Assembly (NCBI GenBank): GCA_963514005.1
Contig: OY740801.1
Span: 23,560,001-23,624,000 of the forward strand
Length of the DNA: 64,000 nt
Direction: 5' to 3'
DNA from: Raja brachyura
Lineage: Eukaryota
Below are positions 6,001 to 12,000 of this stretch, piece by piece (the stretch's first letter is position 1; every line of letters starts with the position of its first letter). A program made the position numbers.

Positions 6001-9000
6001 ATTTCATTGGCTCATTGGGGAAAAAAACGTAAGCAGTAGTTTTCAGAACCAAGGATATCTGACCGGTAATGTAAAATGTCCGCCAAGCTTCACAGCCGTG
6101 TGTATCTCTGGCTTCTTAAAAGTTGTCTCCACTCCTTCTCCCTCCTTCTTAACCCTTTTCCCCCCTCTCTCTCCCTCTCTTTTAAAGGACTCGTACACTG
6201 TGCTTTAGCCGTCTTAACCTTCCTGTTCATCGCGGTGTGTGTCTGTATCAGCTTGGCCTTGCACTTAACGCTTCTCGGCCTTTTGGCTAAGATCAAGTGT
6301 AGTATCTGTTCTTAGGAGTGAAAGAGACTATCTGTTCTTTTTAGAACGGTTCTGGCGGTCCCTTGGGGACAAGGGCCGTGGATTGCGGAGCGAACTTGGA
6401 GACGAGGAGTTGTGGCTGCAGGTTTAGAGGTGGATCCATGCTGGTTGGGTAACCAACCTAACACCTTTTAGCCACTATGTCAGCAGGAGCAGGAGGACAG
6501 GGTATTCGCAATACCCTGAGAATAAGCGTGAAGGACATCAGCGAGGGGACCCTCTTCTCACGAGACCTGTTCGTCAAGAAGGTCTTGCTAGGGGCCCTCA
6601 AATTTGAGGCTAAGGAGATCTACTGCCTCCAGGATTTCCCGGGTAACGGATATTTTGACGTTACCTTCAAGTATCCGACGGGATGGCAGAAGGTGATGGA
6701 GGATTTTCGGGAGAGGGGGAATGAAGCTCCGCTGTCGCTGCTCAAAGTGCAGCCGCTTTTCACCCTCCCCACCCAGAAGGAAAGGTTGATCACCGTGCAT
6801 ATGTTCAACCCACATGTGCCGGTAGTCGATGTCCTCACATTCCTTGCTCGCTACGTTGAGGGAACAGGGAACTGTGTGGACGTGAAGGACTTGCATGGAA
6901 TCTGGACGAGCAAGAGGCAAATCAAGGTCAAGCTGAGGGTGGACAAGGACGGAGAAATTGTCCACCCCCCCTCGGTTTTCGCCATCGGAGGGAACCGAGG
7001 CTACCTCAGCTACGTAGGGCAACCCAGGCTGTGCAGGAAATGCAACAAGCCTGGGCATGTGATGGCCCAATGCACTGCAGTTGTCTGCAAAAACTGCAAG
7101 ATGGAGGGCCACGAGACAAAGGACTGTCAGGCCAGTAAGAGCTGCAACCTGTGCGGGGAGGCAGGCCACCTTTACAGGGCTTGCCCTAAAAGAGCCTGCA
7201 CTTATGCACAGGCGACAAGAGGCGCTGCTGCCAGCACCCCCAAGGTGGGCGAAGCGCCCCCCACCACTACCAAGACCCCAGCAGAGAAAGGAAACGCCGA
7301 TGAGGACAGCCCAACCACCTTGAAGCCCCAAGTGCCAGAAGGAGACGCCCAGCATCTCGCCCAGGAGGGAGAATCGATGGAGGAGGAGGAACAAAAGGAG
7401 AAATGGACAACAGTGTCGTATAAGAAGCCGAGGGTTCAGCCCAAGGAGCCGAGGCCGCAAAGGACTGGTAAGTCTAAAAGCAAGCAAATAAAAAGATGTC
7501 TTTCTATTACAGAAGGCAGCAATCTCTCCTCTTCGTCGGAGGATGAGGCGACCGGGAAGTCCCAGCGAGGGAGACAGAGGAGGAAAACGGGGGAAGAGAA
7601 GAGAGAGGCCACGACGATCACGACCCGGCCCCAGGAGACCGAGAACAGAGAAGCGGCGGAAGGGCCCCAACCCCAGGACACCAGGAGCAGTGCAGCGGTC
7701 GAGGGGCCCCAGGCCCAGGACATCGGGAGCAGTGCAACGGTCGAGGGGCTCCAGCCCCTGGCGACAGGGATCATCACAGCGGCCAATGGGCCCCAGCTCC
7801 GGGCAACCGGGAGCAGCGCAACGGCCGATGGGCCCCAGCTCCGGGCAACCGGGAGCATTGCAGCGGCCAATGGGCCCCAGCTCCGGGTGACCGGGAGCAG
7901 CACAAAGGCCGTTGGGCCCCAGCTCCGGGCGACCGGGAGCAGTGAACCAGCCACCGTGACCCAGCTACAGGAGACGGAGGAAGCCGTGTGCCCGAAAGGG
8001 GGTGGAACGAGAAGGCCCCCCTCAACGACACCACTGGTTGCGCCACCAGAAACTCACCTCATCGCTGGATTCCTGAGCCCAGGAAAGCTGAGGCAATTCA
8101 CCGAAACGGTGGGAATGAGGGGACACGAAAACGGTCAGTGACTCTAAAGACAATGGAGCTCAAACTGGCATCTTTAAACGTGCGCAGTATAAAGAGCACT
8201 GCGCGATGTGTGAACGCCTTACAGTACCTGGCCAAGGTCAAGGCAGATGTGACTTTTCTTCAGGAGTGCGGGCTGCCACACCTCCGCTGCTATCGGAGGT
8301 GGTTGCGATGGTGGCCCCACGGACTGTCGGTGTGGTCGGGGGGCAATGACTGTCGTGCTTCCGGCCTGGGGATTTTGCTGCGGGGAGGGAACTTCGCCAT
8401 CAATGAGGTTAGGGCGGTGGTTGGGGGGCGTCTCCTTGTGGTGGATGTTATGTACCGTGGCTCTCCGCTCCGGCTGATTAATGTGTATGCCTCACCCATG
8501 CAGAGCGAGCGGCTGGCCGTTCTCCAGCAGCTCCCAGTGCTGCTGGCCACGTCCCGGCAGCTCGTTCTGGCCGGTGACTTCAACTGCATCATTGATGCGG
8601 CTGGACGATCCGGCAGTGCCGACAGCAGACTGGACAGCACGTCCAAGTTCCTGAGGGATATGGTAAAAGATGCAAAGCTGCGCGATGCCTTCAGCGACCC
8701 TGCAGGCGGGTCCCAGCCACGGTTCACCTGGTCGAGATCGGACGGTTTAGCCCGATCTCGGATAGACTTTGTCTTCACGACGAAGGCCGTCACGGTGAGA
8801 CACACTGACCTCACGCCGGTGTTCTTCTCCGACCACTGCCTCCTTCAGGCTTCCTGTCACCTACAGGAGGACCGGAAGGCAGGCAGAGGGACGTGGAAGT
8901 TAAACATGAAGCTGTTGACCCCAGAGAACATCGAGGAGCTAAAGAGGGACTACGCATGTTGGAGAACGGTGAAGCCCCTCTTTGACTCCCCCACACTCTG

Positions 9001-12000
9001 GTGGGAAGCAACCAAGGAGAACATTAAGAGGTTCTTCATAAGTAAAGGGGTTCAGAGAGCAAGACAGAGTCAGAGGGAATTGTGCCAACTCCAGACAGAT
9101 TTGCAACAATCTTCTGCAATCCTTCTGCAGTCGAGAGGGGTGGATGTGAAGGAGGAACTTAGAGACGTGAAGGACCGGCAAGCTCGGCTCTTTACCTCTG
9201 AATCCTCCAAGATCATCTTCCGATCCAGGGTCCGCCATGTGGAGCAGGATGAGACGTGCTCACGTTTCTTCTTCCATAAGGTTCACAGGGGGAGCTCTGT
9301 GATGAACAGCCTTAGGGAGGAGGACGGCTCGGTAGCATCCTCACACACAGACATGCTGAGGATCTGCAAATCCTTTTACACAGATTTGTATGACCAAAAG
9401 GCCATAGACAGCACCTCCTCCCAGAACTTCCTGTCCTCGATCACGGAGGTCTTGGAGGACAGCAAGCGGGAGAGTCTGGACCAACCACTGACCCTAGAGG
9501 AGCTGACTGGCTCCATCCGTTCCTTTGACTCGGGTAAAACTCCCGGAAGCGATGGCTTACCGGCCGAGTTGTATTCGGCTCTGTGGGACTGGATGGGCCC
9601 GGACCTGCTAGAAGTGTACAACGACATGCTTCTAGCTGGTAGCATGTCAGACTCCATGAGGAAGGGCAACATCACCCTAATCTACAAGCAGAAGGGGGAG
9701 ATGAAGGACATAAAGAATTGGAGACCCATAACGCTCTTGAATGTAGACTACAAGATCCTGTCTAAGGCCATCGCCAACCGGGTCAAGTCTGCTCTGGGAC
9801 AGGTGATCCACCCGGACCAAACTTGTGCTGTACCTGGCAAGAAAATCTCAGACAGCCTAGCGCTGCTGAGAGATACCATCGCCTACGTGCAGGACAGACG
9901 GGTGGATGCCTGCCTAGTCAGCTTGGACCAGGAGAAGGCCTTTGACAGGATTTCGCACACGTACATGAGGGACGTGCTCTCCAAAATGGGTTTTGGGGAG
10001 GGAATCAGGAATTGGATCAATCTGCTCTACACCGACATCCGTAGTGCAGTCCACATCAATGGGTGGGAATCAGACAGTTTCCCTGTAAGGTCTGGAGTCA
10101 GGCAGGGTTGCCCTCTCTCTCCTGTCTTGTTTGTCTGCTGTATTGAACCTTTTGCCGAATCCATCAGGAAGGATGCGAGCATTAGAGGAGTGACACTGCC
10201 CGGCAGTGGGGGCATTCAAGTAAAGACCTCCCTGTACATGGACGATGTCGCTGTCTTCTGCTCGGATCCAGGGTCGGTCCGCAGATTGATTAGTATCTGC
10301 GACCAGTTTGAGTCGGCCACGGGAGCCAGGGTGAACCGCAGGAAGAGCGAGGCCATGCTCTTTGGCAACTGGCCCGACAGATCTTCCGTCCCCTTCACCA
10401 TCAAGCCTGACTTCTTGAAGGTGCTGGGGATCTGGTTCGGGGGGGCTGAGGCGTGTAACAAGAATTGGCTGGAGCGGATAGCCAGGGTGGGGAAGAAGCT
10501 GGAGCTGTGGAGGCAACGCTCCCTCTCCATAACAGGAAAGAATTTGGTCATCAGGTGTGAGGTGCTCTCGGGCCTGCTGTACTTGGCACAGGTGTGGCCT
10601 GTCCCCCCTTCCTACGCCACAGGGATCACCCGGGCCGTCTTCCAGTTCATCTGGGGGTCGAGGATGGACCGGGTGCGACGGGCCACAATGTACAAGTCGG
10701 CAGACAACGGGGGTAAAAGCGTGCCCAACGTCGCCCTCATCCTGATGGCCACCTTCGTGTGTGGCTGCATCAGGCGGAGTGTAGAGCCAAGGCACGTGGG
10801 CACCAAGTGTCACTACCTGCTGAGGTTCTACCTGTCCCCGGTGTTGCGAAGGATGGGCCTGGCGCAGATGCCACGCAATGTGCCAGTCAGCTGGTCACTG
10901 CCGCCCCATCTGTCGTCTGTGGAAAGGTTCTTCCGGACCAACACCTTTGACCACATGTCCATTGGGCAGTGGTCAGCACAGAATGTCCTGCAGGCACTGC
11001 AGGGAAAGGACTCGATGGACCCGGTGGCGTGGTTCCCTGAGCAGACTGCCCAGCTTGTCTGGCAAAATGCCTCATCGCCAGAACTCACCAACAAGCACCA
11101 AGACCTGGCTTGGCTGGCGGTGAGGGGAGCCCTCCCAGTCAGATCCTTCCTGCACCATCGGAACCTCACTACCAGCGCACGCTGCCCTCGGGACGGCTGC
11201 TATGGAGTGGAGACGGTTGCCCACCTCTTTGCAGAGTGTGGATTTGCCCAAAGAGTCTGGAGAAAAATGCAAGGGTCCCTGGTACGCTTTATTCCAAACA
11301 GCTCTGTCACAGAGGACTCTGTGATTTACGGACTGTTCCCAGGGACACATTCAGAGACTGACATCAAGTGCTGCTGGAAGGTTATCAACTCGGTGAAAGA
11401 CGCTCTCTGGTCTGCCCGAGCTTTGTTCACCACCCAGCAGAGCGAGATGTCCGTCGGGGAATGTTGCCGACTGGCCCACTGCAGACTGCAGGAGTACGTA
11501 CTAAGGGACGCACTGAAGCTCGGTGCAGCCAACGCCAAGGCTCGGTGGGGGAGGGCCACAGTCTAAGGTCCTTCCGCTGCTGGACATGGGGGGTACTGTA
11601 TGGTGGAGACGCCCCTCAAAATAAGGGAAGGTATCCCATGCCGGGGGGCCACATGAGTGGCACGGGTGGGGGATTAATTAGTAAAATTTGAAAAATGTAT
11701 ATAGACTGCATGGAAGAATTTGTATAGCCTCCGAAAATGTCGGATGGATTTTTCGCACGGTTGATGTATTGTAAATATTTATTACTTGAATAAAGTCTAT
11801 TTTGAAATATTAAAAAAAAATGTGAATTTCACTCAGACAGTGCTCCCCCTGCTTGCCCTGTCCCCCGCCTACATAACGGGCTGGTGAAGGAAGCGATGTA
11901 TGAGGAAGAGGAAAATGTAGGGGGTGTATCTTATAAATCTATAGAGTTTGGAATGAGGTCAAGAAATAAGATTGAAGTCTCCTAGCTTGAGGAGGAACTA

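What the first reader, a model, noticed from the sequence alone, without database searches (positions are those of the whole stretch)
6267..11820. Intact Tx1/Keno-like LINE carrying U2 snRNA nt 1-48 as its 5' end but inserted outside a U2 gene
Seen: the element begins at U2 +1. Upstream is MITE sequence rather than a U2 promoter, and downstream of the poly(A) there is no U2 remainder and no evident TSD. Both ORFs are open with catalytic motifs intact. Established: Keno (Tx1 clade) and Utopia elements target this region of U2, and snRNA-LINE chimeras also arise by template switching. Inference: a source copy inside a U2 gene is transcribed from the U2 promoter and the chimeric RNA was retrotransposed off-target, or the U2 head has become a permanent part of a family with relaxed specificity. 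The second copy at 61885 is also not in U2.
Basis: partly seen in the sequence, partly recalled or inferred. Interest (0 to 1): 0.7.

Follow-up and report, generated by a model that had tools for sequence, protein, structure and literature searches.

The report
LINE retrotransposon with U2 snRNA head
An apparently intact jumping gene (a LINE) in what looks like a ray or shark genome carries the first 48 bases of the U2 spliceosomal RNA near its front end, a relic of ancestors that lived inside U2 genes; a similar arrangement has been described in crocodilians.

Summary
The core observation holds. Window 6267-6314 is U2 snRNA nt 1-48. It is followed by two open ORFs: ORF1 has RNA-binding domains and zinc knuckles; ORF2 has APE endonuclease, RT with YMDD, and zf-RVT. 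An AATAAA signal and a poly(A) tail follow, and no U2 remainder lies downstream.

Two details change:
- **Possible TSD.** A 10-nt direct repeat (5997-6006 / 11822-11831) starts 1 nt after the poly(A). The inserted unit therefore probably begins at 6007, 260 nt upstream of U2 +1. About 1% of simulated flanks give such a match.
- **Second U2 piece.** An exact copy of U2 nt 37-47 lies 14 nt inside the head.

The head ends where the left flank of a Keno insertion with a 10-bp TSD would end, because Keno's 3' flank starts at U2 nt 39. This favours a target-derived head over a one-off template switch.

The second copy (61885-62270) is 5'-truncated and sits outside U2. It has a perfect 16-bp TSD and 22 nt of telomere-type repeat at its 5' junction.

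Keno-related Tx1 families with U1 or U2 heads that insert outside U2 are already described in crocodilians (Kojima 2015). This is a new member of a known kind, probably in an elasmobranch. I could not test whether the head is family-wide or whether the RT groups with Keno: no eukaryotic DNA collection and no named Tx1/Keno reference was available.

The parts
5997..6006 (+). Candidate left target-site duplication (10 nt, GTGAATTTCA)
   Evidence: Exact 10-mer shared with 11822-11831. Such a match occurred in 389 of 40,000 simulated flanks.
6007..6266 (+). 260-nt 5' extension between the candidate TSD and U2 +1, origin unknown. It could be the U2 upstream flank of a source copy, another flank, or a template-switch product.
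   Evidence: Lies inside the candidate TSD. No recalled PSE consensus (<=3 mismatches) or octamer (<=1 mismatch) falls here. No Rfam family other than U2 matches at E<=1 (one E=5.7 lncRNA-region hit at E<=10). No other copy in the window.
6267..6314 (+). U2 snRNA nt 1-48 ('head'), 47 of 48 positions matching the U2 model consensus; nt 2 is A instead of U
   Evidence: Rfam RF00004, 62.5 bits, alignment of model positions 1-48
6315..6476 (+). 5' UTR. It holds a second U2-like piece at 6329-6339, identical to U2 nt 37-47, followed by a 7-bp hairpin.
   Evidence: 11-nt exact repeat of the head. 9 of 2,000 shuffles reach its score, and none of about 3,000 other 162-nt chunks of the window does.
6477..8141 (+). 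ORF1, 554 aa: two ZCCHC3-type RNA-binding domains, CCHC zinc knuckles, and a C-terminal 14-aa tandem repeat (42 nt x 7.6 at 7624-7944)
8153..11566 (+). ORF2, 1137 aa: APE endonuclease (aa 6-228), reverse transcriptase (aa 519-761, YMDD), zf-RVT (aa 965-1036)
   Evidence: Nearest solved structure is LINE-1 ORF2p, E 2.3e-81 over residues 5-868.
11567..11820 (+). 3' UTR with AATAAA at 11789-11794 and a 9-nt poly(A) at 11812-11820
   Evidence: Read directly
11822..11831 (+). Candidate right target-site duplication (10 nt)
61847..61862 (+). Left TSD of the 5'-truncated second copy (16 nt)
   Evidence: Identical to 62271-62286, read directly
61863..61884 (+). 22 nt of telomere-type repeat (G-strand) between the TSD and the truncated LINE
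   Evidence: It is the only telomere-repeat match in the window, against 0.28 expected by chance.
61885..62270 (+). 5'-truncated second copy: last 43 codons of ORF2, 3' UTR and an 8-nt poly(A)
   Evidence: 95.1% identity over 388 columns. 43 of 43 residues identical. Alignment A2.
62271..62286 (+). Right TSD of the second copy (16 nt)

Best explanation
This is a young, apparently coding-competent non-LTR retrotransposon of the L1/Tx1 superfamily. Its lineage once lived in U2 snRNA genes in the manner of Keno.

**Origin of the head.** The 48-nt U2 head is the left target flank of such an insertion: a bottom-strand nick before U2 nt 39 and a 10-bp duplication of nt 39-48. It became part of the element's RNA because the source copy was co-transcribed with its U2 flank. 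An inner U2 piece (nt 37-47) suggests this happened more than once.

**The copies here.** Both are ordinary target-primed reverse transcription events outside U2, so the family now inserts, at least sometimes, without U2 specificity.
- The full-length copy was inserted as a 5.8-kb unit (6007-11821) between 10-bp duplications.
- Its template therefore carried 260 nt upstream of U2 +1. Either the source was transcribed from further upstream (5' transduction), or the reverse transcriptase switched to a second RNA after reaching +1.

**Shown:** the U2 identity, the ORFs and motifs, the poly(A), the second copy's TSD, and the absence of U2 downstream.

**Inferred:** the target-derived origin of the head, the reality of the 10-bp TSD, and the origin of the 260 nt.
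For: - U2 nt 1-48 lies at 6267-6314.
- Keno's and Utopia's 3' flank starts at U2 nt 39 (PMC4640811 section 6; PMC6136364 passage giving the 3' target motif). A 10-bp TSD would therefore leave exactly nt 1-48 on the left.
- This copy's candidate TSD is 10 bp and starts 1 nt after the poly(A). Chance matches this long occurred in 389 of 40,000 simulations.
- A second U2 piece, nt 37-47, lies 14 nt downstream of the head; 9 of 2,000 shuffles reach its score. Kojima describes recurrent 5' addition of U2 sequence in related elements (PMC4494074 section 11).
- Both ORFs are intact with catalytic residues.
- Copy 2 has a perfect 16-bp TSD in non-U2 DNA.
- No U2 lies downstream of either copy at E<=1.
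- Neither insertion site resembles the U2 target: 18% to 79% of random 40-mers score as well.
- Precedent: crocodilian Tx1-Mar families, which cluster with Keno, carry U1 or U2 heads and insert into a Mariner, with ~10-bp TSDs seen occasionally for the SINEU-1 elements they are thought to mobilise and 5' extensions in SINEU-2 (PMC4494074 sections 11, 12, 15-17, 20).
Against: - The 10-nt TSD was found post hoc and has about a 1% chance rate for a 1500-nt search space. One extra T lies between the poly(A) and the repeat.
- The TSD length of Keno itself is not given in any text I could read, so 'nt 39-48 duplicated' is inferred.
- No PSE-like or octamer-like motif lies in the 260 nt. A U2-gene source is therefore not supported, although the consensus I used is recalled and mammalian.
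- Only two copies were seen, so 'relaxed specificity' rests on two events.
- No named Keno or Tx1 sequence could be placed on the tree, so the clade is inferred.
- Kojima interprets the crocodilian heads as template-switch products (PMC4494074 section 19).
Confidence: 0.55

Rival explanations
1. The 10-nt repeat is chance and the element really begins at U2 +1. A source copy inside a U2 gene was transcribed from the U2 promoter at +1, and the RNA was inserted off-target with no TSD or a target deletion.
For: - U2 identity starts at +1 (nt 1 matches, nt 2 does not, nt 3-48 match).
- The head ends at the Keno site.
- A 10-nt match arises by chance in about 1% of simulated flanks.
- LINE insertions without a TSD are known (recalled).
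Against: - The repeat starts 1 nt after the poly(A) and has the TSD length expected from the head.
- No alternative TSD abuts 6267.
- From recall: snRNA-type promoters are poorly suited to making long polyadenylated RNAs.
Confidence: 0.2
2. One-off or recurrent template switch. The reverse transcriptase reached the 5' end of the LINE RNA and jumped onto a mature U2 snRNA, as in U6/L1 chimeras. On this reading the head has nothing to do with insertion into U2 genes.
For: - snRNA-LINE chimeras by template switch are documented, and Kojima favours this origin for the SINEU and Tx1-Mar heads (PMC4494074 section 19).
- Copy 2 shows that this family can pick up foreign sequence at its 5' junction: 22 nt of telomere repeat.
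Against: - A jump onto U2 snRNA should copy from a landing point to +1. The landing point here is nt 48, which matches the Keno TSD boundary.
- The inner piece ends at the same place. I estimate a junction within +/-1 nt of nt 48 at about 2% if landing were uniform over about 190 nt.
- Classic chimeras join a whole snRNA to a 5'-truncated LINE, whereas this LINE is full length.
- If the TSD is real, 260 nt lie upstream of +1, and mature U2 cannot supply them.
Confidence: 0.2
3. On-target insertion. A U2 gene or pseudogene stood here, the LINE inserted at the Keno site, and the U2 3' part was later deleted.
For: U2 nt 1-48 is continuous with upstream DNA, with no visible break at +1.
Against: - No U2 lies within 2.2 kb downstream at E<=1.
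- No PSE or octamer lies upstream.
- The 10-nt repeat brackets the whole unit including the 260 nt.
- The surrounding DNA is a patchwork of other retroelements.
Confidence: 0.05

Closest known systems
Tx1-Mar families of crocodilians with snRNA heads: Tx1-11_Crp (U2 head); Tx1-2_Crp, Tx1-2B_Crp and Tx1-4_AMi (U1 heads). Kojima 2015, PMC4494074.
   Same: An autonomous Tx1-type LINE with a U2-derived sequence at its 5' end that inserts outside U2 genes. The paper also reports recurrent 5' addition of U2 pieces and 5' extensions in the SINEU elements that Tx1-Mar is thought to mobilise, with ~10-bp TSDs occasionally seen for SINEU-1, and a phylogenetic link of Tx1-Mar to Keno (sections 11, 12, 15, 16, 20).
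   Different: - Those families are old (85-87% identity to consensus) and prefer one Mariner family. This copy is intact, and its two insertion sites share no repeat.
- The host here appears to be an elasmobranch.
- I could not compare the length of the crocodilian U2 head: the paper's figures are not held and its supplements are closed.
- Relatedness of the RTs was not tested.
Keno, the U2 snRNA gene-specific Tx1-clade LINE (Kojima and Fujiwara 2004, known to me only through citing papers)
   Same: APE-type LINE. The head here ends at the position expected for the left flank of a Keno insertion, because Keno's 3' flank starts at U2 nt 39.
   Different: Neither copy in the window is in a U2 gene, and U2 does not resume after the poly(A).
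snRNA/L1 template-switch chimeras (U6-L1 type; Buzdin 2002, Garcia-Perez 2007, as cited in PMC4494074)
   Same: snRNA sequence joined to the 5' side of LINE sequence inside one TSD-flanked insert
   Different: Here only U2 nt 1-48 is present, the LINE is full length, and the junction coincides with a known LINE target site.
5'-transducing retroelements (the SVA subfamily carrying MAST2 sequence; SINEU-2 with 5' extensions), as discussed in PMC4494074 section 20
   Same: Flanking sequence upstream of the element's normal 5' end is carried into new copies
   Different: A single case here. The origin of the 260 nt is unknown, and no second copy with the same extension was seen.

Membership tests
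L1/Tx1 superfamily of APE-type non-LTR retrotransposons | ORF2 with an N-terminal APE endonuclease and a central reverse transcriptase, catalytic residues kept | tested here: met
   Pfam Exo_endo_phos 8.6e-13 and RVT_1 1.7e-37. All 42 invariant columns of a 30-sequence alignment are kept. LINE-1 ORF2p is the best PDB match, E 2.3e-81.
L1/Tx1 superfamily of APE-type non-LTR retrotransposons | Poly(A)-ended insert flanked by target-site duplications | tested here: met
   Copy 2 has a perfect 16-bp TSD. Copy 1 has a candidate 10-bp TSD.
Tx1 clade | RT domain groups with Tx1/Keno references rather than with L1 in a phylogeny | not testable with these tools
   No named Tx1 or Keno protein was returned. 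In a tree of 40 hand-picked rows, ORF2 is sister to an unnamed Logan sequence (P0001) plus a Pleurodeles sequence (SH-aLRT 100), inside a 13-row clade with Xenopus tropicalis and Conger. None of these carries a clade name.
Tx1 clade | ORF1 with RRM-type RNA-binding domains plus CCHC knuckles (that this is typical of Tx1 is recalled, not tested) | tested here: met
   RBD_ZCCHC3_1st 7.7e-18, RBD_ZCCHC3_2nd 2.1e-24, zf-CCHC 8.5e-07
Keno (U2-specific) | Copies sit in U2 genes, with U2 resuming at nt 39 after the 3' end | tested here: not met
   One U2 match in 64 kb. None downstream of either copy at E<=1. Both copies have non-U2 flanks.
Keno (U2-specific) | U2 5' part on the left of the element, ending at the top-strand cut of the Keno site | tested here: inconclusive
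   The head is U2 nt 1-48. This fits a 10-bp TSD at the nt 38/39 nick, but Keno's own TSD length was in no text I could read.
Head-bearing Tx1 (Tx1-Mar type) | U1- or U2-derived sequence at the 5' end of the family consensus | tested here: inconclusive
   Present in the single full-length copy. A consensus needs more copies, and none could be reached.
Head-bearing Tx1 (Tx1-Mar type) | Preference for Mariner-N4_AMi-like DNA transposons as target | not testable with these tools
   The two sites share no repeat within the window. No transposon library was at hand.
snRNA/LINE template-switch chimera | Whole snRNA, or its 3' part through to +1, joined to a 5'-truncated LINE | tested here: not met
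   Only nt 1-48 is present, and the LINE has a full 5' UTR and both ORFs.

The most novel reading that the evidence does not exclude
The 260 nt upstream of the head are the source U2 gene's own promoter region. This copy would then be a Keno derivative that has carried away a complete external snRNA-type Pol II promoter together with the U2 leader. The promoter would be portable and let the lineage leave U2 genes and found a dispersed family. The crocodilian and elasmobranch head-bearing Tx1 families would be outcomes of the same escape route, with heads that are target relics rather than template-switch products.
Probability: 0.12. Interest if true: 0.7.

Novelty: new member of a known kind. 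Interest (0 to 1): 0.4.

Why it matters
Target-specific LINEs that live in small multicopy RNA genes face a narrow niche, and how they escape it is an open question.

This copy is intact, so it can be tested. It also keeps three kinds of junction evidence side by side: the U2 head ending at the Keno site, an inner older U2 piece, and a 5' extension inside the TSD.

If the head is family-wide, it would extend snRNA-headed Tx1 elements from crocodilians to cartilaginous fishes. It would also argue that such heads come from the target gene rather than from template switching.

If it is a single copy, it is an ordinary off-target or 5'-transduced insertion of a Keno-like element.

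Tried and rejected
- **Named Tx1/Keno reference for an RT tree.** I tried two full-length searches, one short-length search, a cluster look-up of 10 hits and the Atlas on a homologue. All returned only 'uncharacterized' or 'reverse transcriptase domain' names. The tree therefore cannot name the clade. It used 40 hand-picked rows out of about 113 full-length-range hits.
- **snRNA promoter motifs in 6007-6266.** A recalled PSE consensus with <=3 mismatches gave 7 matches in the window (13.4 expected), none in that stretch. 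The octamer with <=1 mismatch gave 109 matches, none in that stretch. This is weak evidence, because the motifs are mammalian and recalled.
- **An empty-site copy within the window.** I blasted each flank separately at word size 7 and found no locus where the two flanks lie side by side.
- **Resemblance of the two insertion sites to the U2 target.** Not significant. The two sites look somewhat alike by eye (8 of 11 positions), but I did not test this.
- **Rfam on the 260 nt.** It found only U2 itself and one E=5.7 hit.
- **Literature.**
  - Kojima and Fujiwara 2004 is not in the held library.
  - Searches for Tx1 with ZCCHC3 and for L1-Tx1 with elasmobranch found nothing.
  - A search for SINEU follow-ups listed 20 of 45 papers; apart from Kojima 2015 itself, the listed ones are almost all about SINEUP.
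  - A search for telomere repeats at LINE junctions returned nothing relevant.
- **Not used.** Structure prediction, complex prediction and the representative-protein search; none bears on the question.

Full report
**What is there**

Rfam finds one family at gathering score in the 64,000-base window: U2 snRNA at 6267-6364 on the + strand, 62.5 bits against a cut-off of 46. The printed alignment shows that the real match is model positions 1-48, window 6267-6314. The only departure is an A for U at nt 2. After that the model is fitted only to a small hairpin and skips most of U2.

The rest of the element reads as follows:
- A 162-nt leader follows the head.
- ORF1 (6477-8141, 554 aa) and ORF2 (8153-11566, 1137 aa) are both open.
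- A 3' UTR carries AATAAA at 11789-11794, followed by nine A's at 11812-11820.
- Pfam finds two ZCCHC3-type RNA-binding domains and CCHC knuckles in ORF1. In ORF2 it finds Exo_endo_phos, RVT_1 and zf-RVT.
- In an alignment of ORF2 with 29 relatives, the 42 invariant columns include the endonuclease residues (E38, D142, N144, D205, D227, H228) and the RT aspartates (D697-D698 of YMDD). The window protein is the first sequence, so it keeps them all. N9 is nearly invariant and is also kept.
- The nearest solved structure is LINE-1 ORF2p, E 2.3e-81 over residues 5-868.

**Where the insert begins**

Comparing the 80 nt around the poly(A) end with the 1,500 nt upstream gives one 10-nt exact match. 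It lies at 5997-6006 and 11822-11831, and the latter starts one base after the poly(A).

How often would chance give this?
- In 40,000 simulated 1500-nt flanks (first-order Markov, window composition), a match of 10 nt or more starting 0-3 nt after the poly(A) occurred 389 times, or 1.0%.
- In 4,590 random 1500-nt stretches of the window it never occurred, and 9-nt matches occurred 55 times. Those stretches overlap and sample only this 64 kb.
- Nothing comparable abuts 6267.

I take the repeat as a probable TSD, not a proven one. If it is real, the inserted unit is 6007-11821 and includes 260 nt upstream of U2 +1.

That stretch has no other copy in the window apart from CT-rich low-complexity matches. 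It has no Rfam match other than U2 itself and one hit at E 5.7. It has no match to a recalled snRNA proximal-element consensus (7 window matches at <=3 mismatches, 13.4 expected, none here). It has no octamer match (109 window matches at <=1 mismatch, none here).

**What the head is**

Two papers place the Keno/Utopia insertion site.
- The U2 sequence downstream of Utopia starts at nt 39, and Utopia's 3' flank is identical to Keno's (PMC4640811 section 6).
- A passage of PMC6136364 prints Keno's 3' target motif, which begins with U2 nt 39-48.

A Keno-type insertion with a 10-bp duplication would therefore have exactly U2 nt 1-48 on its left. That is what the head is, and 10 bp is the length of the candidate TSD of this copy.

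In addition, 14 nt inside the head the leader repeats U2 nt 37-47 exactly, at 6329-6339. Nine of 2,000 shuffles reach that score, and none of about 3,000 other chunks of the window does. By eye the similarity runs on to nt 52 with two mismatches.

So two U2 pieces both end at the same U2 position. This points to the target site as their source, acquired in more than one round, rather than to random landing of a template-switching polymerase. Keno's own TSD length was not in any text I could read, so this step is inference.

**The second copy**

BLAST of the element against the window finds one more copy, 61885-62270, at 95.1% identity over 388 columns. It has these features:
- It is 5'-truncated: the last 43 codons of ORF2 (43 of 43 residues identical), the 3' UTR and eight A's.
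- It is flanked by a perfect 16-nt duplication, 61847-61862 and 62271-62286.
- Its flanks hold no U2 at E<=1.
- Between the left duplication and the truncated LINE lie 22 nt of telomere-type repeat. This is the only such match in the window, against 0.28 expected by chance.
- The two copies differ by 1 synonymous change in 133 coding columns, against 14 substitutions and two 2-nt indels in about 255 3' UTR columns. That pattern fits divergence within active, selected lineages.

Neither insertion site resembles the U2 target region: 18% to 79% of random 40-mers align to the head as well.

**Relatives and host**

- Full-length relatives reach only 45-47% identity (Pleurodeles waltl and an unnamed contig) and 36% for a full-length Xenopus tropicalis sequence (two shorter Xenopus models reach 42-43% over 40% of the query). 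This comes from 102 proteins with E<=1e-10 among 7,996 candidates. A profile search returned the same set.
- Short proteins reach 94% identity (unnamed ENA contig, 26% of the query) and 86% (a partial Mobula hypostoma model, 18% of the query). Other shark and ray fragments lie at 56-72%. These are among 87 proteins with E<=1e-20.
- The window is therefore most likely from an elasmobranch, perhaps a ray. I do not take it for human.
- A quick maximum-likelihood tree used 40 hand-picked rows: the full-length hits, four plant L1-like outgroups and one tick sequence. It puts ORF2 as sister to P0001 plus the Pleurodeles sequence (SH-aLRT 100), inside a 13-row clade (99) that holds Xenopus tropicalis and a Conger cluster.
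- No hit carries a Tx1 or Keno name. 'Tx1/Keno-like' therefore stays an inference from the ORF1 architecture and the U2 junction.

**How it most likely works**

The lineage descends from U2-gene residents. A source copy was transcribed together with its left U2 flank, so the U2 leader became part of the RNA and of later copies. An AATAAA signal and poly(A) point to a Pol II transcript.

Both copies here arose by target-primed reverse transcription at non-U2 sites. For the full-length copy, the template reached 260 nt beyond U2 +1. I cannot separate three origins for that stretch:
- the upstream flank of a U2 gene that housed the source;
- the flank of a dispersed head-bearing source;
- a second RNA copied after a template switch at +1.

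The telomere-repeat filler of copy 2 shows that 5'-junction additions do occur in this family.

**Comparison with what is known**

Kojima 2015 (PMC4494074) is the closest precedent. I read the abstract, passages, and sections 10-12, 16 and 20; the figures are not held and the supplements are closed. The paper reports the following:
- Some crocodilian Tx1-Mar families, which cluster with Keno, have U1- or U2-derived sequences at their 5' ends. Tx1-11_Crp has a U2 head.
- They insert into a Mariner family rather than into U2.
- The SINEU elements they are thought to mobilise show recurrent 5' addition of U2 pieces.
- About 10-bp TSDs are occasionally seen for SINEU-1.
- Some SINEU-2 subfamilies carry 5' extensions, which are read as transcription from the flank.

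The thing found here is the same kind in another vertebrate lineage and in an intact state. It fails the defining test for Keno itself, which is residence in U2. It does not fit the classic snRNA/L1 template-switch chimera, which joins a whole snRNA to a truncated LINE.

My searches found no report of such an element in cartilaginous fishes. They used the terms Keno, Tx1, U2 snRNA, SINEU, and L1-Tx1 with elasmobranch. The held library lacks most subscription journals and Repbase Reports.

**What stayed unchecked**

- No eukaryotic genome DNA collection was available. Other full-length copies, U2 genes of the host and empty orthologous sites could therefore not be examined.
- The supplements and figures of Kojima 2015 and of the Utopia paper may show the length of the crocodilian U2 head and Keno's 5' junction. 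I could not see them.
- No spliced gene model was involved, and the window contains no N.

**Verdict**

I rate it a new member of a known kind, of moderate interest.

Noticed in passing
window 61863-61884: 22 nt of telomere-type repeat (G-strand continuous with the LINE sense strand) lie between the 5' TSD and the 5'-truncated second copy. This is the only telomere-repeat match in the 64 kb, against 0.28 expected. It fits either a template switch onto a UUAGGG-repeat RNA or telomerase extension of the nicked top strand. Both are inference.
   Followed up: partly
window 7624-7944: The C-terminal half of ORF1 holds a 42-nt (14-aa) tandem repeat, 7.6 copies at 79% matches, in frame.
   Followed up: no
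window 6329-6356: The second U2-like piece (nt 37-47) runs into a 7-bp hairpin with a UUUU loop. The Rfam model fitted this hairpin to a U2 stem-loop by structure alone.
   Followed up: partly
window 11434-11820 vs 61885-62270: The two copies differ by 1 synonymous change in 133 coding columns, against 14 substitutions and 2 indels in about 255 3' UTR columns. This suggests they come from different selected sublineages.
   Followed up: partly
window ~900-5600, minus strand: A retroelement with a 776-aa ORF (RT) and an RNase H ORF. Short repeats at its two ends are in permuted order: 5480-5504 then 5505-5594, against 914-1003 then 1002-1026.
   Followed up: no
window 22772-25152: An RT ORF is followed by an ORF with a phage-integrase SAM-like domain, as in DIRS-like tyrosine-recombinase retroelements. 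Further RT fragments lie at 16838-17581 and 55672-56406.
   Followed up: no
window 13058-13145 and 13168-13279: A hairpin gives sub-threshold hits to three miRNA families (best 32.3 bits against a cut-off of 100). It lies beside a partial copy of the palindromic repeat seen at 5677-5875, so it is probably a MITE hairpin.
   Followed up: no
window 63757-63861 and 6130-6185: CT-rich low-complexity tracts. The one inside the 260-nt extension weakly matches the one near the window's end.
   Followed up: no
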